Origin: a virus
Reading direction: 5' to 3' (one strand)
Length of the DNA: 64,000 nt
Virus record (IMG/VR): IMGVR_UViG_3300015371_000002
Span: 32,001-96,000 of that record
The notes under the pieces were generated by a model. It ran no database searches and was not told the origin of the DNA. It saw only the letters and a list, made by a program, of their open reading frames with translations. The position numbers and the translations under genes are program-made. Below, one piece after another: positions 43,470-56,005 of the stretch. The first letter of the stretch is position 1; each line of letters starts with the position of its first letter.

Positions 43470-44410
43470 TGAACCAAAGGACAAGCCCTCGAACAAGAGC
43501 CCACCAGACCAGAGGTTCCAGGAACAACAAGACTAGCGGCCGCCACCGACACCAAGGCAACCAACTAAGGAGCGACACGGATCGCTCGCCTACCAGAGAA
43601 TAGAGACAGGTTCGGCTTGAACTTGACTTCGTTCTAAGTGGCGCCATCGCGTGCCACGTTCCCGTTGCTAGCCTATCGGGCAATGAAGCCTGCCCAGTCT
43701 CCTGCCTCTGGACGACGTGGCCAGTCACGAAGCACAGGAGTCACCGAATAGTGCCATGGGCAAAGGCATCGAACGATGCATGGGTGTCATGGGCGAAGTC
43801 GGAAACTGGGAATACTCCACATACAGGGGACAGCCTCGCATAGGGCTTAGGGTTGCAATTCGGTTGCGAAGCGTATGCTTGAGGCTTGTTCCCTTGCTGG
43901 TCCTGCCCATGCGTGGGGCGCCCGAGTGTGGTCAACGGCCACGCTGGTTTCGCCAGTTACACGGTAGGCAAGATGCTTTTGACGGTAGCAGTCCATTTGC
44001 ACGGCGGACTACACCAGCATTCCAACCGCTGGCCCATCGTGCGCTAACGTTCGGCGGGTATGGGGTTATGGACAACCCTCCGTAGCGCGACACTTGGCTT
44101 CCCGTCACTTGCGACGGTTGCTCAGTATACGCGACGGCACTCCGCGAAGGACGCGAGTAAAGCTACCCGTTACAGTGTGACCCGCGTTTGTGGCAATGGG
44201 CTGGCCTAGGCGCTTATAGGCGCTGCAAACGTAGCAAGATTGACGCTAGCGGTCACGCTGCAACGAATAGCAAGGAAAGCAGGCTTGGCGCACCCCGAAG
44301 CGTGAGAACTATCGGAGTCTCCTAAGTGACAGGATGCAAGGCGCTTATCTCTCACAGTCTGCTGCCATGCCGTCAGGCGGTTTCGGCCGCCTTGCGCAAT
44401 GGCAATAGAG
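43470..44410 (+). ncRNA. Candidate large structured ncRNA or leader RNA
   Basis: No credible ORF between P1 and first gene (44424); many stems with G-U pairs and UUCG-type loops. Confidence 0.5.
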
Positions 44411-44423
44411 GGTTAACTCGGAA

Positions 44424-44684
44424 ATGACGTATCAGGAAGCCAAGGCACGGCAAGCAGCGCTTGAGGCTAACGTAAAGCTGGCCGGCGCTGCATTGCGGCA
44501 ATTCCCCGCAAACGGGCCGATGGGTCTAACGCCAGACTCGGTAAAAGCGTCGCCAGAGTTTCGGACGGCGAAGGCTTGCTTCGATCGGGCTTTCTCGCAA
44601 TTAGCCGCGTTTAATGCGGCTTTCGTGAAAACGTATCGCAAGGAAGCGGCCGCAGAACGGAAAGCTCGGAGAAATGGGAGATAG
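44424..44684 (+). CDS. Early hypothetical protein
   Basis: GLTPD.VK.SPE...AK...AF motif; first ORF of plus-strand island. Confidence 0.7.
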   Translation: MTYQEAKARQAALEANVKLAGAALRQFPANGPMGLTPDSVKASPEFRTAKACFDRAFSQLAAFNAAFVKTYRKEAAAERKARRNGR

Positions 44685-44958
44685 GCGAATGTTATGCGAC
44701 CTTGGCAACCCCATGCCTAAGGGGACGCTGGTTACCGTCAAGACAAACAACGGTGGCAAGATTACTGCCCCATTGGCGATGGCTTATCGTCCCTCTTATC
44801 GCGCCGTGATTGACGTTAATGGTGACGACGTTGTCATTCCAGCCACGCGCATAACGTCAATTCAGAAGGAATTGCCACATCCATGCAAGCGATGCGGTAT
44901 GATCGTTCCCGATGCTCGCGGCATCGTCCATTGCTGGCACCGCGAGTGCCCAGAGTAA
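44674..44958 (+). CDS. Early hypothetical protein
   Basis: Co-oriented, C-terminal CxxC..HC. Confidence 0.55.
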   Translation: MGDRRMLCDLGNPMPKGTLVTVKTNNGGKITAPLAMAYRPSYRAVIDVNGDDVVIPATRITSIQKELPHPCKRCGMIVPDARGIVHCWHRECPE

Positions 44959-44968
44959 GGAGTCAGTC

Positions 44969-45154
44969 ATGACACGCCATGAATCCGCATATGTTTGGGA
45001 GATCGAACGTCTGCCGCACGAATTGCCGCAGGAAATGCCGCGCGACGAACCAATGCTGCAGATTGTCCCCCATGAACGCGAGATCGATCACACACCAGCC
45101 GCAGTGATTATCCGGCCACCGATCGATCAACACGGAAATTTTCGTCCGTGGTAG
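44969..45154 (+). CDS. Early hypothetical protein
   Basis: TAAGGAG SD before ATG 44969. Confidence 0.6.
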   Translation: MTRHESAYVWEIERLPHELPQEMPRDEPMLQIVPHEREIDHTPAAVIIRPPIDQHGNFRPW

Positions 45155-45164
45155 GGATTACCGC

Positions 45165-45193
45165 TTGACGATACCCCACGGTATCCTTATGTA
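45165..45193 (+). promoter_or_regulatory. Sigma70-like early promoter P2
   Basis: TTGACG-N17-TATGTA; lies in a 38-bp direct repeat shared with P3. Confidence 0.7.
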
Positions 45194-45221
45194 GGGGGCA
45201 ACGAAGCGGATGGATACACAG

Positions 45222-45380
45222 ATGACTACCTACCGCGTCACAGCCCAGAGCTACACCAGCAGCCAGCGGATTGCGAAGCTAATCACCAGTGACACTGAGC
45301 AGTCCGCACTACGGCAAGCTAACAAGGAGCTCGATGGCGATTGGTATGTTCTGGATATCAAGCCGGTATCTAAGGCATAG
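45222..45380 (+). CDS. Early hypothetical protein (52 aa)
   Basis: MTTYRVTAQSY... directly downstream of P2. Confidence 0.55.
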   Translation: MTTYRVTAQSYTSSQRIAKLITSDTEQSALRQANKELDGDWYVLDIKPVSKA

Positions 45381-45413
45381 GCGCCCAAACAAGCAAACCC
45401 AAAGGCAACGACA

Positions 45414-45710
45414 ATGACAAAGCATCGCACCCGAAAGTCACGAATTGAGATTATGGTTGTTACACTGCCGGCATACTGGGCATGCGCAATAGTCAATGGC
45501 GATTGCAGCAGTATGGATGATACGGAAGTTTCCGACATGGAGCGTGAGCTTGAAGCGCTATCTGCTGAGGGCTGGTCAATTATTGACGTTGCTCGCGATA
45601 AGAGCGGGGAGCCCGACGAGTCGCGCTTTACATCGTCCTTCCGTCTGTATGGCGGCAATTGCGCTGGTGGCGACGTATTGGATTACGTGGCTATTCGCGA
45701 CAAGCGCTAA
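45414..45710 (+). CDS. Early hypothetical protein
   Basis: LPAYWA.A..NGD motif; A/C-rich leader. Confidence 0.65.
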   Translation: MTKHRTRKSRIEIMVVTLPAYWACAIVNGDCSSMDDTEVSDMERELEALSAEGWSIIDVARDKSGEPDESRFTSSFRLYGGNCAGGDVLDYVAIRDKR

Positions 45711-45790
45711 GGCGGACACATAGCAGCGTTACGGCGCTGCTATAGCCTGCCTTCGCAGGAAACATAACAAGAGCAACCCAAGAGGTTACA

Positions 45791-46174
45791 ATGAGAACTA
45801 AGCACACAGAGCCGCTGTCCAACTGGTGGACCGGAACGGAATCGGCGTGGGAGCGGTTGCCCTATGACGAACGCAAGGAATTAGCATTTGCGGCAACGGG
45901 TTGTGAAGTTGCATGGCCACGTTGGCCCGCGCCAGTTCACTGCTTGCATACAGACTGCCGCATCCGGCGCGGCGAAATTCTGCCGATCGTGAAGCTTAAC
46001 GGCACCATGCGGTATGAAGCCCAAACCGGCTGGTGGCGCTTTATCGAGGACCGCAATCAACTGGCGCGGATATACCGCCACTACCGCCGGGAAGCACGCA
46101 AGGTCGGCGAGTATGATCTATGGAAGCTTGGCGCTGTTGGTGTGGCTTTGTTAGGCGTTTCGCTTTCCAAGTAA
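45791..46174 (+). CDS. Early hypothetical protein
   Basis: GAGG SD; co-oriented. Confidence 0.6.
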   Translation: MRTKHTEPLSNWWTGTESAWERLPYDERKELAFAATGCEVAWPRWPAPVHCLHTDCRIRRGEILPIVKLNGTMRYEAQTGWWRFIEDRNQLARIYRHYRREARKVGEYDLWKLGAVGVALLGVSLSK

Positions 46175-46224
46175 CGGGAGTAGCAACCGCCGGCCGAAAC
46201 GCGATTAAATAGTCGGATTACCGC

Positions 46225-46253
46225 TTGACGATACCCCACGGTATCCTTATGTT
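46225..46253 (+). promoter_or_regulatory. Sigma70-like early promoter P3
   Basis: TTGACG-N17-TATGTT; 46215-46252 identical to 45155-45192. Confidence 0.75.
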
Positions 46254-46287
46254 GTGGGTAACGCAGCAAACCCAAAAGGAGACAACA

Positions 46288-46647
46288 ATGGAACACTGGG
46301 AAACGGTCTGGCAATTCAATACCGCACGCTACACGGTGGCGCTGTCTGTCAGCGACGAAGAGTCAGATCCTGCGGACAGTTTCAGTTTTGAGGATGATGT
46401 CGAATATGCTCGTGAAGGCGGTTGGCATTGGTTCTGCGCACGGGTGCAAGTCATCTTCCGCGACGAGAACAACCCGAAGAACTGGGCGGTGCGGCGTGAC
46501 TTGGTGTTAGGCGAGGACTTCATCGGCGGATGTAGCTATGAAGACTTAAAGTCCTTCAGGTCTGACGGCTATTTCCGCGACATGGTGGCGGAAGCCATTA
46601 GCGAGGCGCGCGGCAAGCTGTCTCGGTTGTGCAGTAAGGCAGCATAG
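46288..46647 (+). CDS. Early hypothetical protein
   Basis: AAGGAG SD; WFCA.V...LG.D..GGC.Y...DGYF.DMV.EA motif. Confidence 0.7.
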   Translation: MEHWETVWQFNTARYTVALSVSDEESDPADSFSFEDDVEYAREGGWHWFCARVQVIFRDENNPKNWAVRRDLVLGEDFIGGCSYEDLKSFRSDGYFRDMVAEAISEARGKLSRLCSKAA

Positions 46648-46656
46648 GAGAGGACA

Positions 46657-46899
46657 ATGCACGCGCTTTCAGTAATCCGCTATCCTTCGGGGCGCTACGG
46701 CTTCGTCGGCAGGGTGCCCGCTGTTCTGGCTTATGAGGGCAGCGAAGAAGACATGGAAACCGCTGCCCACTACGGGCCGGGAATTGCACGAAGGATTGCG
46801 AGCAGGAACGGCCGCGAATTCCGCGCGCTCTCATGGGCCACTCGCGAGGATGCGCTTGCTGCCGCTGCTGCCCACGGCTTCGACGTCCATAACGGCTGA
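46657..46899 (+). CDS. Early hypothetical protein
   Basis: GAGGA SD; YPSGRYGFVG.VP motif. Confidence 0.65.
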   Translation: MHALSVIRYPSGRYGFVGRVPAVLAYEGSEEDMETAAHYGPGIARRIASRNGREFRALSWATREDALAAAAAHGFDVHNG

Positions 46900-47007
46900 C
46901 CATGCTGTAAGGTGCACCTGTGCGGTGTCACCTTGCACAATGGCCAGAGTGACCATTGACGCGCCATACAGAGGGCGCGACGGCACATAAACGGAAGGCA
47001 AACCCAG

Positions 47008-47589
47008 ATGTCAGCGACCAACAAGTGCCCATGTTGTGGGCGCGCCATGCCGCGCCAGCGGACAGCGACAAAACCTAAGCTAATGACGGGCGAACAGTTC
47101 TTTGAAGCTCGCATGGTAGCCTGTCGCGCGATTGCGGCAGACCTAGGCGAAAATTGGCATCTAGTCGAGGGTGCAAGCTACTGGGCCACGATTCCCGCCA
47201 GGCTGCGATCGTTCAAAACCGCACGCGGCACAAAGATTAGGTGCAACCGTGAGGTAAGGTTGCCAGCGGGCCGGTATTGGCCGGCGGGCTGTCTGCCTGA
47301 CGGTTTAGTCGTGGCTCCGCCGTATGCCAGAGACAAGACTCCGCCAGAGGTGGTGCGGCGCATGGCGGCGACACGCGAGCTTGGCAGGCTGGAACGTGAA
47401 TATTCCCACGATCGCAGCCGTGCATTGCACGTCAACGTTCGTTGGCATGACTCAAACTTGAGTCGCTACTACACGCCAGAGGATAGGGCAGCAGATATAC
47501 AACGGGCTTGGGACGTTCGCCGCGAGCTTTCACAGGCTAGACGCGACAGGGCTCTGGTCGCTGATGATACCCTGCCTATGGCAGCATGA
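47008..47589 (+). CDS. Early hypothetical protein
   Basis: CPCCG N-terminus; co-oriented. Confidence 0.6.
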   Translation: MSATNKCPCCGRAMPRQRTATKPKLMTGEQFFEARMVACRAIAADLGENWHLVEGASYWATIPARLRSFKTARGTKIRCNREVRLPAGRYWPAGCLPDGLVVAPPYARDKTPPEVVRRMAATRELGRLEREYSHDRSRALHVNVRWHDSNLSRYYTPEDRAADIQRAWDVRRELSQARRDRALVADDTLPMAA

Positions 47590-47651
47590 CATGACGGCGT
47601 GCTGCGCTCACGTGGCAGGCTACCCCTCTCCAATCGAAGGAGATTAGTAAG

Positions 47652-47897
47652 ATGGACAAGAAAAGAACAAAGACGGCATATGGCGAATATCGTCCAGATT
47701 TGGGTCGCTTCATACTGCGCCCAGTGAAGCGCATTCCATTTATGGCGCCAATTCCTTGCGCGGTGTTCCCTTCGATACAAGAAGCCGAGCAGGCTGCCGA
47801 CGCCCATGGTTATCGAGTTATCTGGGACAAGTCACCCACTCCAATCGAAGGGGGCCAATTCCGGGCTCCCTGTCCAATCGAAGGGGATCGAAAATGA
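47652..47897 (+). CDS. Early hypothetical protein
   Basis: Repeat supplies SD; ends TPIEG...CPIEGDRK. Confidence 0.6.
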   Translation: MDKKRTKTAYGEYRPDLGRFILRPVKRIPFMAPIPCAVFPSIQEAEQAADAHGYRVIWDKSPTPIEGGQFRAPCPIEGDRK

Positions 47898-48103
47898 ATC
47901 TCAGTGAGAGAACCGCGTTGATCAATCGCATTGCTAGCCTGCCCGGACCCGTCACGCTTGACGGAAAGCCGGCGCTGATTTGCGGACTGACCAGCGACTT
48001 CCTAACCGTGGTCACTATGACCTTACCGCGAGTGTCTTGTCAGTTCTCGTGGGAAGCGGTGGCGCGATTGCTCGACAAGGGCGGAGCTTTCCGTTCCTTC
48101 TGA
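47894..48103 (+). CDS. Early hypothetical protein
   Basis: Repeat supplies SD; VTLDGKPA.I.G...F..V motif. Confidence 0.65.
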   Translation: MNLSERTALINRIASLPGPVTLDGKPALICGLTSDFLTVVTMTLPRVSCQFSWEAVARLLDKGGAFRSF

Positions 48104-48160
48104 CCAGTCTCGATCCTGTCCTCGCTTCGGTAGCATAACTCCAATCGAAGGAGCTTTGAA

Positions 48161-48319
48161 ATGAAGACCTATACACTTAGCGTCCTTGTCTCAGTCGACC
48201 TAGCGTTTTCCAACGACGAAGCGGCGAAAGAATGGGCGGAAGAGCACACTGTTTTCGATATGCTCGACAAAGGCGCTGGCGTTGGTGAAGTCGTCATTAC
48301 TCCAATCGAAGGGGATTAA
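48161..48319 (+). CDS. Early hypothetical protein (52 aa)
   Basis: MKTYTLSVLV...TPIEGD between two repeat copies. Confidence 0.6.
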   Translation: MKTYTLSVLVSVDLAFSNDEAAKEWAEEHTVFDMLDKGAGVGEVVITPIEGD

Positions 48320-48320
48320 A

Positions 48321-48521
48321 ATGCTCACTCTCAGAGAGGCCGACATACTCCGCGCCTACTGGCGCCAAACCTACGCCGTAGTGCGCGTCCGTCGGGATGG
48401 CACAGTTGAGGCGAAGCAGTGCCCATCATCGCCGTGGGCCATCCTGGAAACGCCGGAACAAGCGCGCCTTAGCGCCGCCGAGCTCTTGGCCATTCCGGGC
48501 AATCGAAGGGGATCGAAATGA
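48321..48521 (+). CDS. Early hypothetical protein
   Basis: Between repeat copies. Confidence 0.6.
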   Translation: MLTLREADILRAYWRQTYAVVRVRRDGTVEAKQCPSSPWAILETPEQARLSAAELLAIPGNRRGSK

Positions 48522-48682
48522 CAATGCATGATCTAGGGGACGTGTTTCAACACGCGTTTCACCACGAACGATCCCCGCGAGCGAGCGCGGCGGAGGTCGC
48601 GACATTCTGCGGCATGGTGGCCGCTGCGCTGCTGGTGACGTGGTTCACCACGGGCCACGCGTTGCTTATGGCGATGCGGTAG
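48518..48682 (+). CDS. Early small membrane protein (54 aa)
   Basis: MTMHDLG...hydrophobic C-half; between repeat copies. Confidence 0.5.
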   Translation: MTMHDLGDVFQHAFHHERSPRASAAEVATFCGMVAAALLVTWFTTGHALLMAMR

Positions 48683-48708
48683 ACCCATTCCAATCGAAGG
48701 GGGCCAAA

Positions 48709-48951
48709 ATGGCCATGAAACGTCAGCGCCTATGGACCGTATGGGGACAAGATCCCCTGCGCCCAGGCAATCGCATGTTCAAGACCGAAGCTGAAGCATT
48801 GGCCTATGCGGCCGTGCTGGCGCCGATATCTAGCGGATGGGCGATGGTTCAGGATCATTGGACGCGCGAGATCAGGACCGTGCGGGCGATATACCCCACT
48901 CCAATCGAAGGGGAGCGAAAATACCCTGTCCAATCGAAGAATACCGATTGA
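48709..48951 (+). CDS. Early hypothetical protein
   Basis: Repeat supplies SD; F.TEAEA..YA motif. Confidence 0.6.
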   Translation: MAMKRQRLWTVWGQDPLRPGNRMFKTEAEALAYAAVLAPISSGWAMVQDHWTREIRTVRAIYPTPIEGERKYPVQSKNTD

Positions 48952-48976
48952 CAGATACCCTGCGGTATACTATATT
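48948..48976 (+). promoter_or_regulatory. Sigma70-like early promoter P4
   Basis: TTGACA-N17-TATATT with GATACC/GGTAT palindrome. Confidence 0.8.
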
Positions 48977-49013
48977 GCAGGCAACAACAATTCAGCAAAT
49001 CCAGAGGCAACCA

Positions 49014-49580
49014 ATGACCGAATATAGCAATCCACGCTTACGCGCCGTGATCGACAATTGGCCCATCGGCAGCAAGCGTTGCACCGCAACGTTTATGATC
49101 GAGCGCAACGGCAAGGGAGAGCGCGGAGTTCGCACAACGGTTGGTGCACCCAAGAAGCTGACCTATGCCCGCAAGGCGCGCATTGTCGACGGTGACGATG
49201 GGCGAACGTATATCGCCGAGCTGTCGGCATACGGTTTCGTCTCAATTATGCGCGGCGACATGAAGTTTCAGCATGAAGCGGTGTTCGATACCGACCCGCG
49301 GTTTCGGGCGATCATGTCGCTATTCTCGGAGGGCCGACAGATGACCTGCTTTCCCGTTCGTGAGCCATCACTCGCAGCGTTAACCGACGCGCCAGTGTCT
49401 TTCCGCTACGGATCGAACAAGCGGCGCATCCTAGTCGATGCGTTGACGGCTCGGGCCATCCTGGCCGTTGTCGCTGCTATCAGCGATGAGAACCGCGAGA
49501 AGCTAGAGCGTATGATTAAGTCACCATCCGGACTTGCGAAAGTTGCCGACTTTGCCATGAGCAAGTGTTCGATAGCTTGA
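49014..49580 (+). CDS. Early hypothetical protein
   Basis: GAGG SD downstream of P4; MTEYSNPRL... Confidence 0.7.
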   Translation: MTEYSNPRLRAVIDNWPIGSKRCTATFMIERNGKGERGVRTTVGAPKKLTYARKARIVDGDDGRTYIAELSAYGFVSIMRGDMKFQHEAVFDTDPRFRAIMSLFSEGRQMTCFPVREPSLAALTDAPVSFRYGSNKRRILVDALTARAILAVVAAISDENREKLERMIKSPSGLAKVADFAMSKCSIA

Positions 49581-49612
49581 CTCTCGCATGTCCAATCGAA
49601 GGGGATCATTCA

Positions 49613-49858
49613 ATGGAACACGTCACGCGATATGTCGGCACCTATGTGAACAGCAACGGCGAGCGAACCTTAATGTCGGCAGCACAAGGACGCCATACCT
49701 ACGCTTCGGCTGAAGAAGCGCAGGCCTGGATCGACGCTGTTACCACGAACAACAGCGCCGATACGCTGAGGCAGGTCTGGGGCGATAACCCGCAATTCGA
49801 GGTTCGCCCCTGCCCCTGCTACCCGGGGCACTTTGACCCGCAAACTGTATGGTTCTGA
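49613..49858 (+). CDS. Early hypothetical protein
   Basis: Repeat supplies SD; CYPGHFDP tail. Confidence 0.65.
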   Translation: MEHVTRYVGTYVNSNGERTLMSAAQGRHTYASAEEAQAWIDAVTTNNSADTLRQVWGDNPQFEVRPCPCYPGHFDPQTVWF

Positions 49859-49923
49859 CGGCGCGGGCGCCCCATTCATAGCGGGGCGCCTCTCCAATCG
49901 AAGGAGCGAAATAGGAGGAAATC

Positions 49924-50386
49924 ATAGGCTTAGATATGTATTTGGAAAAGCGCCCATTACGTGAAGAACTGGGACAACATGGGACCGGAAGAGCGGCATC
50001 AGGTAACGGTGCTAAAAGGTGGCAAGCCGACGACCATTAAGCCGGAACGCGTCAGTTACGTGATCGAGCAGGTTGCATACTGGCGTAAGGCAAACGCTAT
50101 TCATCAGTGGTTCGTCGAACACGTGCAGAATGGCGAAGATGACTGCAAGCCATATGTATGCGACTCTGACAAGCTGAAGGAACTATTGAGCGCAGTGGAT
50201 GCGGTGCTGAAATGCCGCAAGAAGGCCAAGGAACTATTACCCACACAGGAAGGGTTTTTCTTCGGCAGCATCGAGTATGACGAATACTATCGGCAATACC
50301 TGAAGGACACCAAGCGGATGCTTGAGGAGATCCTTGCCGAACCCGATGCAGACATCAGTGAGTATGTTTATCAGTCTAGTTGGTAA
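49924..50386 (+). pseudogene. Disrupted MGLDMYL...YWRKANAIH-type phage protein
   Basis: AGGAGG then ATA-GGC-TTA-GAT-ATG-TAT-TTG (xGLDMYL), one extra C at CGCCCAT, then frame +1 continues ...YWRKANAIHQWF...GFFFGS.EYDE.Y...YQSSW. Confidence 0.65.
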
Positions 50387-50412
50387 CGCCGCTCCAATCG
50401 AAGGAGGCCAAA

Positions 50413-50601
50413 ATGATCGTCCGTAGTCCAGACCCGCGTTTGGTTCGTAAGGCGCACAAGGCGCTGATGTGGTCGCGCGATTATCAGAGCGGCGAGGCCA
50501 CGCGACCAGATCCGCTGGCATTCACGCCGGAGATGGAGCGCGCCACGCAGCAGTGGATTGCGCACATGCTGCGTCTTGGCATTGGGAAGGAAACGCGATG
50601 A
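50413..50601 (+). CDS. Early hypothetical protein
   Basis: Repeat supplies AAGGAGG SD. Confidence 0.6.
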   Translation: MIVRSPDPRLVRKAHKALMWSRDYQSGEATRPDPLAFTPEMERATQQWIAHMLRLGIGKETR

Positions 50602-51038
50602 AAACCGATGACGATGATGCGGCCATGCCAAAGAGCATGTTCGCCTTGCCCACGCACTTGCGGGACCTGCTGGACCGTTACGCGAAGGAGCGCGGGATCA
50701 AGAAGCCCGAAGCTGTGCGCCATATCCTGGCACTGTTCTTCGCCAGCCAAGAGGACGGACACCTGTCCAGCCAGGACGCGTTGGCGCGCATGGCGGAGGT
50801 GGCCGGGCAACAGGCTGGCAACCGCAACGCCCGCGAGCATGGCCGTGAGGCATGGTCAGGCGAGGATTTCCGCATAGCCGGCGAGGCAGCGGGGCGGATG
50901 GCGGCACGGTTGGCAGAAATCTGGGCCCCACTCCAATCGAAGGGGGCCGAACCAGATGCTCTTACCTCGACCGATGTTGCCGTGGAGATTAGTGACGGTT
51001 TGGCTACCCCGAGGGTGGCCCGGCGGAAACGCGCGTGA
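50598..51038 (+). CDS. Ribbon-helix-helix domain protein
   Basis: FALPTHLRDLLDRYAKERGIKKPEAVRHIL; ATGA coupling. Confidence 0.6.
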   Translation: MKTDDDDAAMPKSMFALPTHLRDLLDRYAKERGIKKPEAVRHILALFFASQEDGHLSSQDALARMAEVAGQQAGNRNAREHGREAWSGEDFRIAGEAAGRMAARLAEIWAPLQSKGAEPDALTSTDVAVEISDGLATPRVARRKRA

Positions 51039-51066
51039 TCGCAACCCCACTCCAATCGAAGGGGGC

Positions 51067-51654
51067 ATGGAGGAAAGCATGACTACCGAGCGGCGGGCGC
51101 AGCAGCACGAGCAAGTCCTAAGGCATTGCCTGCGAGCGCTAGCTGGCGATTTGCTGCGTGCCATTGCGGGCGGTAGCGCCAGTAAGATTGTCGAACGCAT
51201 TGGCGAGGCCAATGAGGCGATAGAGAATTGGTTTGATGGACGGCAGTGCATGCCATTCGGCCAACGCACGGTCGAAGCTATGCTTTGGTTAGAGGAAGAT
51301 CGCGACGGCTATGATGATCACAGAAAAGTCGAGCACGACATGATCATTGCCGCACTGCGAACGGTATCGGCTCGCATGCTACCTATGCCGCATATTCGTA
51401 ATGATTGGTTTAAGTATGAAGACATCAACGCTCTAGCTGAGCTGCGCAAGAAGCGGCGAGAGCAGATGGAAAGAAAGTGGGCAAAATGGCGGGCGCGCTC
51501 GCCAGAGCACAAACAACCGGCAAATGATGTCTTACCGAAAGCCAACAAGGCGAAAGTCAACAAGACTGAACGACGGATCGCAATCCGAAAGCAAGCGCGG
51601 CAGGCTCAGAGAAGTCGTATGGGCATCGCCGCCACTCCAATCGAAGGAGACTAA
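51067..51654 (+). CDS. Early hypothetical protein with basic C-terminus
   Basis: Repeat upstream; ends TPIEGD. Confidence 0.65.
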   Translation: MEESMTTERRAQQHEQVLRHCLRALAGDLLRAIAGGSASKIVERIGEANEAIENWFDGRQCMPFGQRTVEAMLWLEEDRDGYDDHRKVEHDMIIAALRTVSARMLPMPHIRNDWFKYEDINALAELRKKRREQMERKWAKWRARSPEHKQPANDVLPKANKAKVNKTERRIAIRKQARQAQRSRMGIAATPIEGD

Positions 51655-51656
51655 AT

Positions 51657-51761
51657 TTGGCATGTCCTGACATGGGCTGGCCGGCTGTCATTGGCGGGCT
51701 GGGGGCTCTCTGGGCAGTCGTGGCCCTGATGCTGGGGCTGGCCTGGTTGTTGCACGAATGA
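51657..51761 (+). CDS. Small membrane peptide (34 aa)
   Basis: TTG start after repeat SD; GWPAVIGGLGALWAVVALMLGLAWLL; fills gap between copies. Confidence 0.45.
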   Translation: MACPDMGWPAVIGGLGALWAVVALMLGLAWLLHE

Positions 51762-51786
51762 CCCACTCCAATCGAAGGTGACTGAA

Positions 51787-52335
51787 ATGCGCCTCGTGCA
51801 CTACGCGTCGGAGCCGTTTGGCGAGTTGGAGGAATTCGGTGAACCACCCGAGAAAGACTGGCGCACCTATTTCTACAAACCGCATGGTTTGTGGGTATCC
51901 GACGAAGATGCCGAGGGTGGCTGGCGTGAGTGGTGCATCGACAACCGGTTCAATCTGGAGTGCCTCACCCACGTGCATGATGTGGTATTGGCGCCCGATG
52001 CCAAGGTGTTGGTCATCAGCAACCCTCGTCGGCTCGACCAGTTCACCGCCGATTTTCGCCTACCGTCCTATTACGACAAGAAGCTTGCGGACGATATGCG
52101 GAGCTTCGTTGCAAGTTACGGCCTCGGATGGCGCGAGGTGGCGAAGATCTACGACGGCCTGATTATTACGCCATACCTCTGGGAGCGGCGGCTCGATCCG
52201 ACGTGCATGTGGTATTACGGATGGGATTGCGCCGGCGGTTGCTTATGGCACACGCGCGCTATCCAGTCGGTCACGCTGCGTGAGGTCGTGCCAATCCCTG
52301 AGACCACTCCAATCGAAGGGGAGTCAAATGGTTGA
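51787..52335 (+). CDS. Early hypothetical protein (KP.GLW.S...YGWDC family)
   Basis: H, KPHGLWVS, W..V...YDG.I, YGWDC motifs; ends TPIEGESNG. Confidence 0.7.
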   Translation: MRLVHYASEPFGELEEFGEPPEKDWRTYFYKPHGLWVSDEDAEGGWREWCIDNRFNLECLTHVHDVVLAPDAKVLVISNPRRLDQFTADFRLPSYYDKKLADDMRSFVASYGLGWREVAKIYDGLIITPYLWERRLDPTCMWYYGWDCAGGCLWHTRAIQSVTLREVVPIPETTPIEGESNG

Positions 52336-52531
52336 GCCTGACAGCATCGAGGTGGACGGCGTCTACCGCACCATGGAGGCGTTCTGGACGGTGACCGAGA
52401 TCGTCGATGGTAAGGTGGACCTGCGCCGTGATGACGGAAAGCTGGCGCGGTTTGGCTTGGCGCACTTCGCACAGATCGTGGAACGTAGGGTTACTCCAAT
52501 CGAAGGGGGCCAAAACAATGGACCACGGTGA
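52328..52531 (+). CDS. Early hypothetical protein
   Basis: Between repeat copies. Confidence 0.6.
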   Translation: MVEPDSIEVDGVYRTMEAFWTVTEIVDGKVDLRRDDGKLARFGLAHFAQIVERRVTPIEGGQNNGPR

Positions 52532-52784
52532 TGGCAATATGCAGCGCTGGAAGCGTGGCGCGACGAGAGAAGAATTACGCATGTCTCTCGTGGGTTTAAT
52601 GGAGAGCATTAACCATGATGCCAAGGAGGGCATCGAAATCTGCGTTCGGCTAAGCACCAAGGAAGGCTGCGAAGGTCCGGGCACCCTAGGCACCGACTAT
52701 TTCATCAAGATTATGCAGGCGGTTACGTGGATTGATGATCTCGTGGGGGATTTGGAGCTTGCCGAAGAAAGGCTGATCCCATGA
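52518..52784 (+). CDS. Early hypothetical protein
   Basis: Repeat supplies SD. Confidence 0.6.
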   Translation: MDHGDGNMQRWKRGATREELRMSLVGLMESINHDAKEGIEICVRLSTKEGCEGPGTLGTDYFIKIMQAVTWIDDLVGDLELAEERLIP

Positions 52785-52948
52785 GCCCGGCGGTTCTGGT
52801 GCTGCTCTTCACGTTCGCCAGCGGCGCGGGTGCCGTAGCGACGGTCGACATGCCGTCTATGCAGATATGCAAGGCTGCTGCGAACGAAGCCATTGTCGCG
52901 CATGAACGCGATACGTCAGCGCGGTGCATATCACGCGTCGCAAAATAA
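52781..52948 (+). CDS. Small exported/membrane protein (55 aa)
   Basis: MSPAVLVLLFTFASG..., two Cys; ATGA coupling. Confidence 0.5.
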   Translation: MSPAVLVLLFTFASGAGAVATVDMPSMQICKAAANEAIVAHERDTSARCISRVAK

Positions 52949-52993
52949 TCTACTTGCGTTCCTCGAGGGGTGTCCAATCGAAGGGGGCCAAAA

Positions 52994-53305
52994 ATGGCGG
53001 GACTAACCAGCTATGCACGGGACAAGCTGCTGGCAGAATTGCAATCGGGCACGATGACATCCGGCGCTGTCTCGATCGACGTCGGTCATTTGCCCGCAGG
53101 TTACGTCAGGTTCGATAGCTGGCCCAAGGCGCCCGCGCCCGTCCATGGCTTGCTGACCGATCCGGAGACCGGCCAGTCGTGGCGGATCAGCTTGAATCAG
53201 GTTACCAAGCAGTGGGAAATTGTGGACGATCCCAGTCCAAGGATCAGCAAGGCAGCCCTGGAGGCGAAGATCGCCGATGCAGCATTGCGAGCGGCCAAGG
53301 AATGA
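52994..53305 (+). CDS. Early hypothetical protein
   Basis: Last repeat copy supplies SD. Confidence 0.6.
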   Translation: MAGLTSYARDKLLAELQSGTMTSGAVSIDVGHLPAGYVRFDSWPKAPAPVHGLLTDPETGQSWRISLNQVTKQWEIVDDPSPRISKAALEAKIADAALRAAKE

Positions 53306-53577
53306 CGTGGGGGCCGTATCATAGGGTCTGGCATAGACCGATAAAACGCAAGCGGCGGTGGAGGTGCCTGCACTGCCAGCTTCTGCACCGACGCAACAAC
53401 CTCGACCGGGTGCCGATTTACGCCATTGACCGGTTTCTTGGCCGAGTAGTGCGAGAACACGACAAGCTATGGAGCGCGCTGAAGGTCGGATGGTGCCCAT
53501 GCAAGGCTACGGTCGAAATGCTGCCGTCGAATACCCCGCATCTGCGACGTATCAAGCGAGAGCGGTTACGACCGTAG
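53302..53577 (+). CDS. Basic hypothetical protein with CxxC
   Basis: ATGA coupling; ends at terminator. Confidence 0.5.
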   Translation: MTWGPYHRVWHRPIKRKRRWRCLHCQLLHRRNNLDRVPIYAIDRFLGRVVREHDKLWSALKVGWCPCKATVEMLPSNTPHLRRIKRERLRP

Positions 53578-53580
53578 GGC

Positions 53581-53620
53581 AAAAGAAATGGCGGGGACCT
53601 AAAGCCACCCGCCCAGTTTT
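53581..53620. terminator. Probable bidirectional terminator at end of early island
   Basis: AAAAGAAA-TGGCGGG...CCCGCCCA-GTTTT at the convergence of plus and minus gene blocks. Confidence 0.6.
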
Positions 53621-53872
53621 GCAAACCCAAAAGCAACAGACACAATGGAAGGTTTGTTGCTCAGATGCCGATATAGCCGAAAGTGGCGGGCATTACAATA
53701 GCTTCGGTGGTCGCGCGGGATCGTGGCCATTCCATTCTGGCACATCAACAGCTTCTCCAGGCGGCTGGATCGCCATAATGACGATAATCAGGACCACGGC
53801 GAGCGCCAGAACTGCGATCAGTGTCCAAATGATAAAGCGGAAGAACCTTACGGGCTGGCGGGGCAACGCATG

Positions 53873-54142
53873 TCAGCGCAGGGACGTGATCCTGCCAACG
53901 GCTGCATCACTCCCAGGTTTTACCCGCTCGGCCCGTTCGACCGTGCCACCCAGAACACGCCGCTGGTTCTTCGTCGTGCGGCCCTGGACGAGATCTTCAC
54001 AGACCTGATCCACCCGCCGCTGCACCGCCTTTTCCGACACATCGACAGAGTCCGGCTTCGGCTCATCGGCCTTGGTGAGGTAGGTGTCGGTGTAATATTC
54101 GATGATGTATTCGGTAGGCCCAACGTATTGCGGATTTGGCAT
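53873..54142 (-). CDS. Hypothetical protein
   Basis: AGGAG SD before MPNPQYVG. Confidence 0.55.
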   Translation of the reverse strand: MPNPQYVGPTEYIIEYYTDTYLTKADEPKPDSVDVSEKAVQRRVDQVCEDLVQGRTTKNQRRVLGGTVERAERVKPGSDAAVGRITSLR

Positions 54143-54264
54143 GGGCGGCTCCTGGTGGCGGCTGAACCGACAATTTGGCGCGCCGGAATTACGCCCCCGA
54201 CGCAAGGCGATCAGCACGAGGGCCCAGCTTCCCGGAAGGACCGCGCGCCGACATTCTATTGGAA

Positions 54265-54519
54265 TTACGCCGGATCGGGGTCGGGCTCCGGCTCATCGTT
54301 GGTGTCCTCGGTAATTCGCCCGTCTTTGCCGTCCAGCATGACACGGGCGGTAGCGCCCGCCGCGTTGGTCGCTGAGCAGGCCCAATTACGCCCGCGGTGC
54401 TTCAGATCGGTGACGTTGGTATAACCTGCATCGGCCAGTGCCTGCTCGGCTCCGGCATCGTCCTGCACGGCGTCGTGAGAGTGGCCGTGCGGGTGCGCTG
54501 GATGTGGAGGTGCAGCCAT
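54265..54519 (-). CDS. PepSY-domain protein
   Basis: AL.DAGYTNVTDL......W...A....G....V.LD...G.I. Confidence 0.7.
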   Translation of the reverse strand: MAAPPHPAHPHGHSHDAVQDDAGAEQALADAGYTNVTDLKHRGRNWACSATNAAGATARVMLDGKDGRITEDTNDEPEPDPDPA

Positions 54520-54656
54520 TTGGGTTATCTCCTGTTTTAGAAATTACAGCGGGTCACGGCCAGGCACCGACCAGCAGCCACCACAGGACCAAGGCCGGTG
54601 TGGCATACCAGAGGGCCGCCGCGAACACTGCGAGCAACAGAATAAATAGGGTCAGC

Positions 54657-54908
54657 TCACCGCAAGCCTTCGTCCTGATAGCCGCTATCCCATGCGCGCG
54701 CCTGTTCGGTGTCCCTGAAATAGGGGTTGTTCGAATCTTTTGCCTGTCGGCGCACCAGCATGCCTTGGACATAGGCGCGACCGATGCTCTGATTATGTGT
54801 CTCTTGGGCAGCGCTGTTCTCTGGCACCAACACCGGGACAGGCTTTGCCGACGGCTTGTGGCCCCTAAGCCAGCGTCGCAACTGCTGATGCCATTTGGTC
54901 TCGGTCAT
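54657..54908 (-). CDS. Hypothetical protein
   Basis: AY..G......NPY.......AW..GY motif. Confidence 0.5.
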   Translation of the reverse strand: MTETKWHQQLRRWLRGHKPSAKPVPVLVPENSAAQETHNQSIGRAYVQGMLVRRQAKDSNNPYFRDTEQARAWDSGYQDEGLR

Positions 54909-55021
54909 CAGCCGAGCACCACGACTTGGTCGTGATAAACCCAGAAAGCGAGACCGAGCAGCACGACCACGGCGATGACGTAGTAGATCCTACGGGTTTT
55001 CATGGCTTGCCATGGTTTATC

Positions 55022-55792
<771 letters not shown>

Positions 55793-55795
55793 TCG

Positions 55796-56005
55796 CTATT
55801 TCATCCCTGTCAGGGCTGTTGTGCAAACGCTGAACAGCTTCATCACCGCTTCGATGCGCGTGATGGCCAAATCGTGCATGAACCATAGCATGCCGAGAAT
55901 GAAGATGAGGTTTATACAGAGGAGCGCAACAAATGACGGCGGTAGTGTGCCGGTGACCTTGATGGCGACATCACGCACGTCTTCTGAGATTGTCATCATA
56001 TCCAC
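55796..56005 (-). CDS. Small membrane protein (holin-like candidate)
   Basis: One TM segment; lysis region. Confidence 0.5.
   Translation of the reverse strand: MDMMTISEDVRDVAIKVTGTLPPSFVALLCINLIFILGMLWFMHDLAITRIEAVMKLFSVCTTALTGMK

What the first reader, a model, noticed from the sequence alone, without database searches (positions are those of the whole stretch)
47628..52987. Array of small genes punctuated by 19 copies of a hairpin-forming TCCAATCGAAGG(A/G)G element
Seen: an invariant 11-mer TCCAATCGAAG occurs 18 times (plus one variant) in 5.4 kb, always on the plus strand, and I did not notice it elsewhere in the window. About 15 copies sit 7-20 nt before a start codon and supply its SD. 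Most read CUCC-AAUCGAA-GG(A/G)G, a 4-bp stem with a fixed 7-nt loop; the A/G variation is what a U-A/U-G pair tolerates, and the stem occludes the SD. Established analogues: mycobacteriophage cluster K start-associated sequences, T4 early promoter stem-loop gene shuffling, boxB/MS2 operator hairpins, integron attC arrays. None has this sequence to my knowledge. Inference: either an RNA operator giving coordinated translational control of ~16 unrelated host-takeover genes, or a recombination site for a gene-cassette array, or both.
Basis: partly seen in the sequence, partly recalled or inferred. Interest (0 to 1): 0.9.

Follow-up and report, generated by a model that had tools for sequence, protein, structure and literature searches.

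The report
Start-site tag joining phage gene cassettes
An uncultivated soil phage puts the same short DNA tag, which carries the ribosome-binding site, in front of about fifteen unrelated small genes, and related phages have gained, lost or swapped genes exactly at this tag, so it looks like a joint for shuffling gene cassettes rather than a hairpin switch.

Summary
TCCAATCGAAG occurs 18 times exactly, plus one variant. All copies lie on the + strand within window 47629-52986 and nowhere else in the 124-kb phage record. Thirteen copies place GAAGGRG 6-10 nt before an ATG, one before a conserved TTG, one is ambiguous and four are orphans.

The hairpin reading is weak. Only 12 of 19 copies can form the 4-bp stem, no change is compensated, and two stem-less copies still lead genes. 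These start regions are less folded than other start regions of the phage.

The cassette reading gains support. Relatives with 80-90% DNA identity carry only 1-4 degenerate copies, and their insertions and deletions end at the motif. A more distant phage shares one gene with the window, and that homology begins at the first base of the motif. No integrase was found, but a RecT gene is present.

Best reading: a start-associated junction tag. It resembles cluster K mycobacteriophage SAS in position and T4 PeSLs in behaviour, with a new sequence. What reads the invariant half outside the ribosome-binding site is unknown.

Earlier notes of this scan describe comparable junction tags in other uncultivated phages.

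The parts
47629..47642 (+). motif copy 1, cTCCAATCGAAGGAG, 9 nt before ATG 47652
47840..47853 (+). motif copy 2, orphan; first of a tandem pair 33 nt apart, no start codon follows
47873..47886 (+). motif copy 3 (TGTCCA form), 7 nt before ATG 47894
48140..48153 (+). motif copy 4, 7 nt before ATG 48161
48301..48314 (+). motif copy 5, 6 nt before ATG 48321; read as TPIEG by the upstream ORF
48498..48511 (+). variant copy GGCAATCGAAGGGG without the 5' stem arm, 6 nt before ATG 48518. With its left flank it repeats the 47851-47897 junction minus 9 nt
48689..48702 (+). motif copy 7 (TTCC form), 6 nt before ATG 48709
48900..48913 (+). motif copy 8, orphan; followed by GAGCGAAAATA where other copies have ...AAAATG
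48929..48939 (+). motif copy 9, orphan. It matches only through base 11, then a sigma70-like promoter and gene 49014 follow
48948..48976 (+). sigma70-like promoter (TTGACA, 17 nt, TATATT; 11 of 12), the best match in 44000-56000
49591..49604 (+). motif copy 10 (TGTCCA form), 8 nt before ATG 49613
49893..49906 (+). motif copy 11. It is the left edge of the cassette shared with L239/L240; the gene behind it has its own AGGAGG
50393..50406 (+). motif copy 12, 6 nt before ATG 50413; lies 6 nt after the stop of the shared cassette
50932..50945 (+). motif copy 13, 10 nt before ATG 50956; lies inside the 3' part of ORF 50598-51038
51051..51064 (+). motif copy 14, ambiguous: ATG 51067 is too close, and ATG 51079 has its own GGAGG
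51636..51649 (+). motif copy 15, 7 nt before TTG 51657 (this start is kept in relatives, where the later ATG is ATC)
51767..51780 (+). motif copy 16 (GGTG), 6 nt before ATG 51787; left end of the 182-aa-gene indel
52308..52321 (+). motif copy 17, 6 nt before ATG 52328; right end of the 182-aa-gene indel
52495..52508 (+). motif copy 18, 9 nt before ATG 52518. Four alleles in relatives break at its edges
52973..52986 (+). motif copy 19 (TGTCCA form), 7 nt before ATG 52994. Relatives have an extra gene just 5' of it
47652..48951 (+). six small motif-led ORFs (47652-47897, 47894-48103, 48161-48319, 48321-48521, 48518-48682, 48709-48951), several with stop/start overlaps. No family match; absent from relatives
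49014..49580 (+). 188-aa gene behind its own promoter, with no motif at its start. Its N-terminal ~106 aa belong to a widespread phage family
49613..49858 (+). 81-aa motif-led gene. Its 78%-identical homologue in phage G003 is led by a different repeated motif
49979..50386 (+). 135-aa gene (phrog_7971). Together with motif 49893 it is shared at 85.7% DNA identity with L239/L240. The window copy has ATG>ATA and a +1 C near the ancestral start
50413..51038 (+). 62-aa gene and a 146-aa gene with a weak (E 0.006) match to a PHROG repressor family, joined by an ATGA overlap with no motif between them
51079..51654 (+). 191-aa basic protein (possibly 232 aa from ATG 50956), ending ...TPIEGD
51657..51761 (+). 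34-aa hydrophobic peptide gene, conserved in the relatives L070, L193 and L194
51787..52335 (+). 182-aa gene (phrog_8582), flanked by motif copies and absent from every relative examined
52328..52531 (+). 67-aa gene present in all relatives. Its C-terminus PIEGG is encoded by the motif
52518..52948 (+). two genes (88 and 55 aa) joined by an ATGA overlap with no motif between them. They are always present or absent together in relatives
52994..53305 (+). 103-aa gene led by the last motif copy; used as the anchor to find relatives

Best explanation
The element is a lineage-specific start-associated junction tag. Each joint of a co-oriented array of unrelated small genes has the same order: the upstream stop (or tail codons read as TPIEG), a C-rich flank, the invariant TCCAATCGAAG, G-R-G, a 5-10-nt A-rich spacer, and then the start codon.

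On the mRNA, GAAGGRG serves as the Shine-Dalgarno sequence in a weakly folded start region. Frequent stop/start overlaps couple translation along the row.

On the DNA, the identical 11-16 bp at every joint (up to about 30 bp within subfamilies) form direct repeats. At these repeats genes are deleted, inserted and exchanged between co-infecting phages. This most likely happens by short-homology recombination, for which the phage has a RecT-family annealing protein, and not by an integron-type site-specific recombinase.

Shown: copy number, strand, confinement to the array, spacing to start codons, and the coincidence of homology breakpoints with the motif in relatives and in a distant phage.

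Inferred: that the motif's SD is the one used, the recombination mechanism, and that something reads the invariant non-SD half TCCAATC sequence-specifically.
For: Position:
- 13 of 19 copies have an ATG at a fixed offset (background 0.11, P 5e-9), and one more has a conserved TTG.
- All 19 copies are co-oriented with the genes and confined to 5.4 kb.

Start regions:
- The 15 motif-led start regions are less structured than 80 other SD-led ones (MFE -12.0 vs -16.4 kcal/mol, P 0.0009).
- Their start codons are more open (0.60 vs 0.47, P 0.02).

Junction behaviour:
1. The 182-aa gene 51787-52335 is flanked by copies 51767 and 52308. It is absent from every relative examined. In L070, L193, L194 and L196 a single copy sits at the joint.
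2. The joint at 52495 has four alleles, whose breakpoints fall at 52491, 52510 and 52513-52518.
3. Relatives have an extra gene that ends just 5' of copy 52973.
4. The two genes without a motif between them (52518 and 52781) are always inherited together: present in 4 relatives, absent in 3.
5. L239/L240 have structural genes only 67-75% identical in DNA, yet share window 49892-50387 at 85.7%. The homology starts at the first motif base and ends at the stop codon, and a degenerate second motif follows.
6. In that cassette the gene has its own AGGAGG, so SD function alone does not explain why the motif is kept.
7. The junction 47851-47897 recurs at 48486-48520 with a 9-nt deletion, so whole joints are copied.

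Other:
- RecT (PF03837, E 1e-9) lies at G000:C1:123801-124241.
- The array proteins are unrelated to each other apart from tails encoded by the motif.
- In phage G003 a homologue of gene 49613 sits behind a different private repeated start motif. The tag therefore belongs to the array and not to the gene.
Against: - Gene boundaries and motif copies nearly coincide, so part of the breakpoint association could be the ordinary tendency of phage mosaics to break between genes. Only one motif-less boundary in the part shared with relatives serves as a control.
- 11-16 bp is short for RecT-type recombination.
- Neither SD function nor a need for homology explains why the non-SD half is invariant (18 of 18) while GGRG varies (5 GGAG, 12 GGGG, 1 GGTG, 1 GAAT) and the flanks vary.
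- L239/L240 have no other motif copy that could have received the cassette by homology.
- Four orphan or tandem copies are not what clean motif-to-motif recombination leaves behind.
- There are no expression data. No deletion or circle junction was seen, but only assembled contigs could be laid.
- The same genes work behind ordinary SDs in relatives, so the tag is dispensable for any single gene.
Confidence: 0.55

Rival explanations
1. RNA operator. A phage-encoded (or host) sequence-specific RNA-binding protein recognises UCCAAUCGAAG on the polycistronic mRNA and switches translation of the whole gene set on or off together. The hairpin may or may not be involved. The cassette breakpoints would then be a by-product of repeated sequence.
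For: The non-SD half has sharp edges and is invariant in 18 of 18 copies, while the SD part and the flanks vary. The motif is all-or-none in a weight-matrix scan.
Against: No candidate reader was identified. The 193-aa and 191-aa proteins have no credible PDB sequence match (none, and three weak ones at E 0.057-0.36) and no Atlas lead, and the AF2 model of the 193-aa protein has pLDDT 47. No CsrA-like or RegA-like family was searched. The stem is absent in 7 of 19 copies and no change is compensated. SD accessibility is no lower than in other genes. Copy 49893 and its L240 counterpart lie 22 nt or more before a gene that has its own SD.
Confidence: 0.2
2. Site-specific cassette system. The 11-mer is the crossover or target site of an unidentified recombinase or nuclease. 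Cassettes move as motif-bounded units, either as circles or by insertion with target duplication, in the manner of an integron.
For: Core identity has sharp edges. Copy 48929 departs from the consensus exactly after base 11, where a promoter-plus-gene module begins. The cassette shared with L240 is bounded by a motif on both sides in a genome with no other copy. Tandem 'empty' joints occur at 47840/47873 and 48900/48929.
Against: The record is 92% complete and has no tyrosine integrase (PF00589) and no serine recombinase (PF00239). No attC-like inverted repeats lie beside the copies. The 5' flank (CCCAC) and 3' spacer fall into graded subfamilies rather than being unrelated. No circle or joint was seen, though only contigs could be laid.
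Confidence: 0.12
3. DNA operator of a repressor, like a stoperator. A phage DNA-binding protein, for example the 146-aa protein at 50598-51038, whose only lead is a weak PHROG repressor-family match, binds the asymmetric site at every joint and blocks transcription through the array.
For: The sites are asymmetric, co-oriented with transcription and lie in short intergenic gaps, as recalled for cluster A stoperators (contrasted with SAS in PMC3203893). The 146-aa array protein matches phrog_876 'transcriptional repressor' weakly, at E 0.006.
Against: The sites are confined to 5.4 kb rather than spread over the genome. The fixed spacing to start codons and the embedded SD are not needed for an operator. 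The PHROG match is weak, and relatives with few or degenerate sites also encode a small protein that looks ribbon-helix-helix-like to me by eye at the head of the operon; no family search was run on it.
Confidence: 0.07
4. RNA processing site. An endoribonuclease cuts the polycistronic transcript at each motif (compare T4 RegB at GGAG, recalled), giving monocistronic mRNAs with a common 5' end.
For: The regular placement before each cistron on the transcribed strand, with a GGAG or GGGG element, is the only support.
Against: No RNA data exist, as no RNA run was on offer. No nuclease was identified in the array. Cutting inside the SD would inactivate these genes rather than express them. This reading does not explain the DNA-level breakpoints.
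Confidence: 0.04

Closest known systems
Start-associated sequences (SAS) of cluster K mycobacteriophages (Pope et al. 2011, PMC3203893; passages read)
   Same: Both are short asymmetric repeats with 11-19 copies per genome in one orientation. They occur only among non-structural genes, a few nt before start codons that are mostly ATG. Both contain the SD core plus conserved positions with no rRNA partner. They are private to one phage group, and the same gene families occur with or without them in different phages. The function is unknown in both cases.
   Different: The sequence is unrelated (TCCAATCGAAGGRG vs GGGATAGGAGCCC). The phage is an uncultivated 124-kb rhizosphere phage with no DNA match in INPHARED. 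All copies are packed into 5.4 kb instead of being spread over a genome arm. There are no ESAS-type inverted repeats. Here the copies also coincide with indel and exchange breakpoints.
PeSL regulatory cassettes of T4-type phages (Arbiol et al. 2010, PMC2839356; abstract and outline read)
   Same: In both, repeated regulatory elements bound ORFan genes in a hyperplastic region, and insertions, deletions and replacements between close relatives occur at the repeats.
   Different: A PeSL is a sigma70-like promoter plus a terminator stem-loop. This element is an SD-bearing tag with neither. Only one sigma70-like site lies near the 19 copies, and promoter-like sites are not enriched (8 found vs 5.9 expected). 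Mini-circles were shown for PeSLs but could not be tested here.
Linker or boundary sequences of lambdoid phages (Susskind and Botstein modular theory; Clark et al. on HK620; recalled, not read here)
   Same: Both are short conserved sequences at gene boundaries, proposed to guide homologous exchange of modules.
   Different: Those are few, weakly conserved and not tied to the SD. Here there are 18 identical cores within one operon.
Integron attC/attI cassette arrays (recalled)
   Same: Both are co-oriented arrays of unrelated, mostly promoterless small genes, each bounded by a repeated site.
   Different: No IntI or other site-specific recombinase was found. The site is 11-16 nt, asymmetric and lies 5' of the ORF with the SD, rather than being a 55-140-bp imperfect palindrome 3' of it.

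Membership tests
Start-associated sequences (cluster K SAS) | Short asymmetric repeat, 11-19 copies per genome, essentially one orientation | tested here: met
   19 copies, all on the + strand, 0 on the reverse strand; feature taken
Start-associated sequences (cluster K SAS) | Lies a few nt upstream of predicted start codons, with ATG strongly preferred | tested here: met
   14 of 19 copies (13 ATG, 1 TTG) lie 6-10 nt after GGRG; 1 is ambiguous and 4 are orphans
Start-associated sequences (cluster K SAS) | Restricted to non-structural genes | tested here: met
   Confined to the small-gene block 47629-52986. Terminase, portal and capsid genes lie on the - strand without it
Start-associated sequences (cluster K SAS) | Contains the SD core plus conserved positions that cannot pair with 16S rRNA | tested here: met
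   GAAGGRG plus the invariant TCCAATC. The anti-SD sequence is recalled. No 16S gene end carrying the complement of the motif was found in GTDB species genomes
Start-associated sequences (cluster K SAS) | Consensus GGGATAGGAGCCC in cluster K mycobacteriophage genomes | tested here: not met
   The sequence is different, and there is no DNA similarity to any INPHARED phage. It therefore works like SAS but is not a member of that family
Start-associated sequences (cluster K SAS) | About half of the copies are preceded by 17-bp imperfect inverted repeats (ESAS) | tested here: not met
   None of the 5 inverted repeats of at least 10 nt found in 47500-53100 lies next to a copy
PeSL (T4-type phages) | Each element is a strong sigma70-like early promoter plus a terminator stem-loop | tested here: not met
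   One sigma70-like site (48948-48976) lies near the 19 copies. Promoter-like and terminator-like sites are not above shuffles
PeSL (T4-type phages) | Indels and replacements between close relatives occur at the repeats in an ORFan-rich region | tested here: met
PeSL (T4-type phages) | Mini-circles formed by exchange between neighbouring repeats | not testable with these tools
   Only Logan contigs were available and no joints were reported
Integron cassette array | Adjacent IntI-type tyrosine recombinase | tested here: not met
   PF00589 gives 0 matches in the 92%-complete record, while the control found it in 14 of 14 genomes. PF00239 also gives 0
Integron cassette array | attC: an imperfect inverted repeat of 55-140 bp 3' of each ORF (recalled definition) | tested here: not met
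   No such repeats at the joints; the repeated unit is about 16-34 nt and direct
Stoperator (cluster A mycobacteriophages) | Asymmetric repressor sites dispersed over the whole genome (recalled; contrasted with SAS) | tested here: not met
   All copies lie within 5.4 kb of a 124-kb record
Stoperator (cluster A mycobacteriophages) | Bound by the phage repressor | not testable with these tools
   The only lead is a weak match of a 146-aa array protein to phrog_876 'transcriptional repressor' (E 0.006)
RNA operator hairpin (boxB or MS2-operator type) | A stem maintained across copies, with compensatory changes | tested here: not met
   The 4-bp stem is possible in 12 of 19 copies. The GTCC, TTCC, GGGC and GGTG copies break or weaken it without compensation. 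Predicted folds differ between copies. The orthologue TGCAATCGAAGG lacks the 5' arm
RNA operator hairpin (boxB or MS2-operator type) | A cognate RNA-binding protein | tested here: inconclusive
   None was recognised among the neighbouring proteins

The most novel reading that the evidence does not exclude
The invariant 11-mer is the attachment or crossover site of a phage gene-cassette system that needs no integron integrase. An unidentified phage or host enzyme reads TCCAATCGAAG and excises motif-bounded genes. It then re-inserts them at any other copy, including copies in unrelated co-infecting phages. Because the site carries the ribosome-binding site, every captured gene is expressed at once. 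Start-associated sequences in general would then be cassette attachment sites.
Probability: 0.15. Interest if true: 0.8.

Novelty: new variant of a known kind. Interest (0 to 1): 0.5.

Why it matters
Start-associated sequences have been known since 2011, and their function was still called unverified in 2025. This array is an unusually clean case. It has 18 identical cores in one operon, and relatives show gene gain and loss at the tag. One cassette shared with a distant phage has homology that starts at the first base of the tag. A homologous gene in another phage sits behind a different private tag.

Together these points suggest that such tags are joints of swappable gene cassettes as well as ribosome-binding sites. 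That would explain how phages assemble and turn over their rows of small accessory genes. It also offers a natural 'plug-and-express' adaptor. The limits are that the host is unknown, the phage is uncultivated and there are no RNA data.

Tried and rejected
**DNA similarity.** Near and distant searches of 47000-53500 against INPHARED phages found no match.

**Motif in IMG/VR.** An exact scan for CTCCAATCGAAGGRG gave 114 stretches with one copy each. Two are real: L070 is a close relative, and L026 is the contig of L240.

**Stable SD-occluding hairpin.** Rejected.

**Antisense partner RNA.** No site elsewhere in the record complements at least 10 of the 12 motif bases, apart from the opposite strand of the copies themselves.

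**Extended pairing with the 16S rRNA tail or its precursor.** The four GTDB hits to the joined pattern do not read as rRNA; I read them by eye as protein-coding. None lies at a 16S end.

**Conserved C-terminal peptide.** Eight of 11 read-through ORFs read the motif as (T/C)PIEG, but three use other frames and eight upstream genes stop before it. I treat this as a side effect.

**Known RNA families and tRNAs.** None found.

**Own-genome family searches.**
- No match for PF04542 (sigma-70 region 2), PF04404 (ERF) or PF01165 (ribosomal protein S21).
- PF00940 (T7-type RNA polymerase) gave no match, but its control found nothing in any of the 14 named control genomes, so that result says nothing.

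**Candidate reader proteins.** No credible PDB sequence match, no Atlas lead and a poor AF2 model, so no fold search was run.

**Close relatives of array genes 51079 and 51787 in IMG/VR.** None.

**Homologues of gene 49014.** The 33 IMG/VR loci examined carry no motif.

**Sequencing runs.** No RNA holder was listed. Contigs of 4 runs match the array with almost no differences. They show no joints, and some bins have no cover.

**Literature.**
- The string CAATCGAAGG occurs in 25 papers. The 10 listed are all on unrelated topics.
- Two keyword searches found nothing beyond the SAS and PeSL papers.
- Supplements of the SAS papers were not opened.

Full report
**1. The observation**

The 11-mer TCCAATCGAAG occurs 18 times exactly, always on the + strand, between window 47629 and 52983. 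Dinucleotide shuffles give a mean of 1.11 matches and at most 5, counted with up to 1 mismatch. The window lies in a 124,250-bp IMG/VR virus record, at C1:32001-96000, estimated 92% complete. The whole record holds the same 18 forward copies and none in reverse. A nineteenth copy, GGGCAATCGAAGGGG at 48498, lacks the first three bases.

A weight matrix built from the copies scores them at 18.5-32.6 bits. The next best sites anywhere in the record score 14.0 and 10.1. The motif is also the most repeated 11-mer of the genome.

Conservation has sharp edges:
- TCCAATCGAAG is invariant in 18 of 18 full copies.
- The following GGRG is GGAG in 5 copies, GGGG in 12, GGTG in 1 and GAAT in 1.
- The base before TCC is C in 13 copies, G in 5 and T in 1.
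- The flanks further out are only about 50-75% conserved.

**2. Relation to genes**

The block 45791-54935 is a + strand run of small ORFs inside a mostly - strand genome. That genome has recognisable terminase, portal and protease-capsid genes.

- Thirteen of 19 copies have an ATG 19-27 nt after the motif's T, which is 6-10 nt after GGRG. Each opens an ORF of at least 29 aa. The background for positions in 47000-53500 is 0.11 (P 5e-9).
- Copy 51636 leads a TTG. This is the start that relatives keep, because the later ATG is ATC in them.
- Copy 51051 is ambiguous.
- Copies 47840, 48900, 48929 and 49893 lead no gene. Two of them form tandem pairs with the next copy, 33 and 29 nt apart. Two are followed by ...GAAAATA or ...GAAATA where other copies have ...AAAATG, as if a start codon had decayed.

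Most predicted genes show a coding-type GC1>GC2<GC3 pattern, and many overlap stop and start. The proteins are unrelated to each other apart from tails that the motif itself encodes. Eight of 11 ORFs that read through a copy read it as (T/C)PIEG.

19 array proteins and one alternative long ORF (50956-51651) were scanned against Pfam and PHROGs. None matches Pfam. Three match unknown-function PHROGs strongly and three more only weakly. 'Host takeover' is therefore an assumption.

**3. The hairpin**

CUCC-AAUCGAA-GGRG can form in 12 of 19 copies. The GTCC, TTCC, GGGC and GGTG copies weaken or break it, and none is compensated. Minimum-energy folds of the 26-nt contexts differ from copy to copy and range from 0 to -8 kcal/mol, with one at -15.

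Two independent copies without the 5' arm still sit 6-7 nt before start codons. One is at window 48498, and the other is the orthologue TGCAATCGAAGG in relatives.

Over -35..+25, the 15 motif-led start regions were compared with 80 other SD-led start regions of the same genome, using my own crude gene calls:

| Measure | Motif-led (n=15) | Other SD-led (n=80) | P |
|---|---|---|---|
| MFE, kcal/mol | -12.0 | -16.4 | 0.0009 |
| Start codon unpaired | 0.60 | 0.47 | 0.02 |
| SD unpaired | 0.42 | 0.46 | not significant |

I conclude that a dedicated SD-occluding operator hairpin is not supported. A weak stem that a terminating ribosome would melt, strengthening translational coupling, remains possible.

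**4. Close relatives**

Anchoring on the terminase and on the last motif-led gene found short IMG/VR and JGI contigs (L070, L192-L200). They are 77-92% identical in DNA and syntenic on both sides. All lack window 43038 to about 51660. That 8.6 kb is replaced by about 1 kb that encodes a small protein, ribbon-helix-helix-like by eye, and an 83-aa gene. The relatives carry only 1-4 motif copies, at orthologous joints and with degenerate cores: TGCAATCGAAGG, TCCAATCGTAGG, TCCGATCGAAGG and TCCAATCGAGTG.

Breakpoints:
- The 182-aa gene 51787-52335 lies between copies 51767 and 52308 and is absent from every relative examined. L070, L193, L194 and L196 have one copy at the joint.
- Right after copy 52495, L070-type contigs have a 190-bp insertion.
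- L196 instead replaces the motif and the PIEGG tail from its 5' edge onward with a membrane-protein gene.
- L192, L199 and L200 join the motif directly to the 52994 homologue and lack two genes.
- An extra gene in five contigs ends just 5' of copy 52973.
- Genes 52518 and 52781 have no motif between them and are always present or absent together.

Contigs from four rhizosphere metagenome runs carry the array with almost no differences. One loose end at 52513 is the L070-type allele, present in the same sample.

**5. Distant phages**

L239/L240 have structural genes only 67-75% identical to this phage in DNA. They share window 49892-50387 at 85.7%. In the pairwise alignment there is no similarity upstream. 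Homology starts at the first base of an exact motif copy, runs through the leader and the 135-aa gene to its stop codon, and is followed by a degenerate second copy, CTCCACCATCGAGG, after which similarity ends.

In L240 the gene starts behind its own AGGAGG, 22 nt after the motif. The window copy has ATG>ATA and a +1 C there and uses an internal start. These records have no other copies.

Separately, the motif-led gene 49613 has a 78%-identical homologue in a complete 44-kb phage, G003. There it sits in a row of six + strand copies of a different tag, RAACCGCGAGG, within 1.5 kb. Five of those have GAGG and an ATG 5-17 nt downstream. The tag therefore belongs to the array and not to the gene, and the phenomenon recurs with private sequences.

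**6. What could act on it**

The record has:
- no tyrosine or serine recombinase;
- no match to sigma-70 region 2, ERF or ribosomal protein S21;
- no match to T7-type RNA polymerase, although that control found nothing in any named control genome;
- a RecT-family gene at its end.

There is no antisense copy of the motif elsewhere in the record. No GTDB species genome has a 16S end followed by the complement of the motif. No Rfam family matches, and no ESAS-like inverted repeats lie beside the copies. The unknown proteins of the private 8.6-kb block gave no lead.

**7. Explanation**

The best-supported reading (0.55) is a start-associated junction tag. On the mRNA, GAAGGRG is the SD of a weakly folded start region in a tightly coupled operon. 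On the DNA, the identical joint is where cassettes are deleted, inserted and exchanged, probably by short-homology recombination.

Shown: the anatomy and the coincidence of breakpoints with the motif. Inferred: SD use and the recombination mechanism.

Unexplained: why the non-SD half is the invariant part. With the window about 10-20% diverged from its relatives, zero changes in 198 core positions means one of two things. Either a sequence-specific reader imposes selection, or the spread was very recent.

Rivals:

| Rival | Confidence |
|---|---|
| RNA operator for an unknown protein | 0.2 |
| Site-specific cassette system with an unknown enzyme | 0.12 |
| Stoperator-like DNA operator | 0.07 |
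| RNA processing site | 0.04 |

The main caveat is that motif copies and gene boundaries nearly coincide. Part of the breakpoint association may therefore be ordinary mosaicism.

**8. Comparison with known systems, and novelty**

In position and anatomy the element works like cluster K SAS (PMC3203893, passages read). A 2025 survey still calls SAS function unverified (PMC12699233, passages read). This element fails membership on sequence, phage group and ESAS.

In behaviour it works like the PeSLs of T4-type phages (PMC2839356, abstract and outline read), but it has neither promoter nor terminator. It is not an integron.

Earlier notes of this scan describe comparable junction tags in other uncultivated phages, including a 'stop-TGTCCA-SD-start' adaptor. 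Four of the 19 copies here read TGTCCA. I checked only that count, not a relationship between the two.

My verdict is a real feature and a new variant of a known but unexplained kind, with interest 0.5.

Noticed in passing
L326 3076-4558 (G003:C1:26108-27600): A complete 44-kb phage with terminal repeats has its own row of six + strand copies of RAACCGCGAGG in 1.5 kb. Five of them carry GAGG and an ATG 5-17 nt downstream. One copy leads the homologue of window gene 49613.
   Followed up: partly
window 49924-49979: Compared with L240, the cassette gene has ATG>ATA at the ancestral start and one extra C (CGCCCATTAC vs CGCCATTAC). The first 18 codons are therefore out of frame, and the gene probably starts at ATG 49979.
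   Followed up: yes
window 49866-49890: A GC-rich hairpin (GGCGCCCC, 9-nt loop, GGGGCGCC) without a U-tract lies 2 nt before motif copy 49893. It is not conserved in L240.
   Followed up: no
window 49014-49340: The N-terminal ~106 aa of the 188-aa protein belong to a very widespread, unnamed small-protein family, up to 89% identical among the 120 hits listed. There are 598 hits in the protein collection and 33 IMG/VR loci. Here the domain is fused to a private C-terminal extension and sits behind its own sigma70-like promoter.
   Followed up: partly
window 47629-52986, - strand: The reverse complement of the core reads CTCC-TTCGATT-GGAG. Its 7-nt loop equals the tRNA T-loop consensus as I recall it. 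This is probably coincidence and was not tested.
   Followed up: no
G000:C1:123801-124241 (outside the window): A RecT-family gene (PF03837, E 1e-9) is cut off by the end of the record.
   Followed up: no
window 45791-46174 and 52994-53305: Two otherwise unrelated proteins share a 15-aa stretch at 67% identity (residues 41-55 and 42-56, E 5e-4).
   Followed up: no
L070 4177-4200, L192 5312-5335, L196 8300-8325: In relatives a degenerate motif copy (CTCCAATCGAGTGAAGG...ATG) lies inside a continuous ORF. That ORF fuses the 52994 homologue to a downstream domain (...GTPxGDxxDRLIxLVEAYEDEQ) that is absent from the window.
   Followed up: no
L194 9196-9753: The relative L194 appears to carry a short internal duplication of the 52778-52888 segment.
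   Followed up: no
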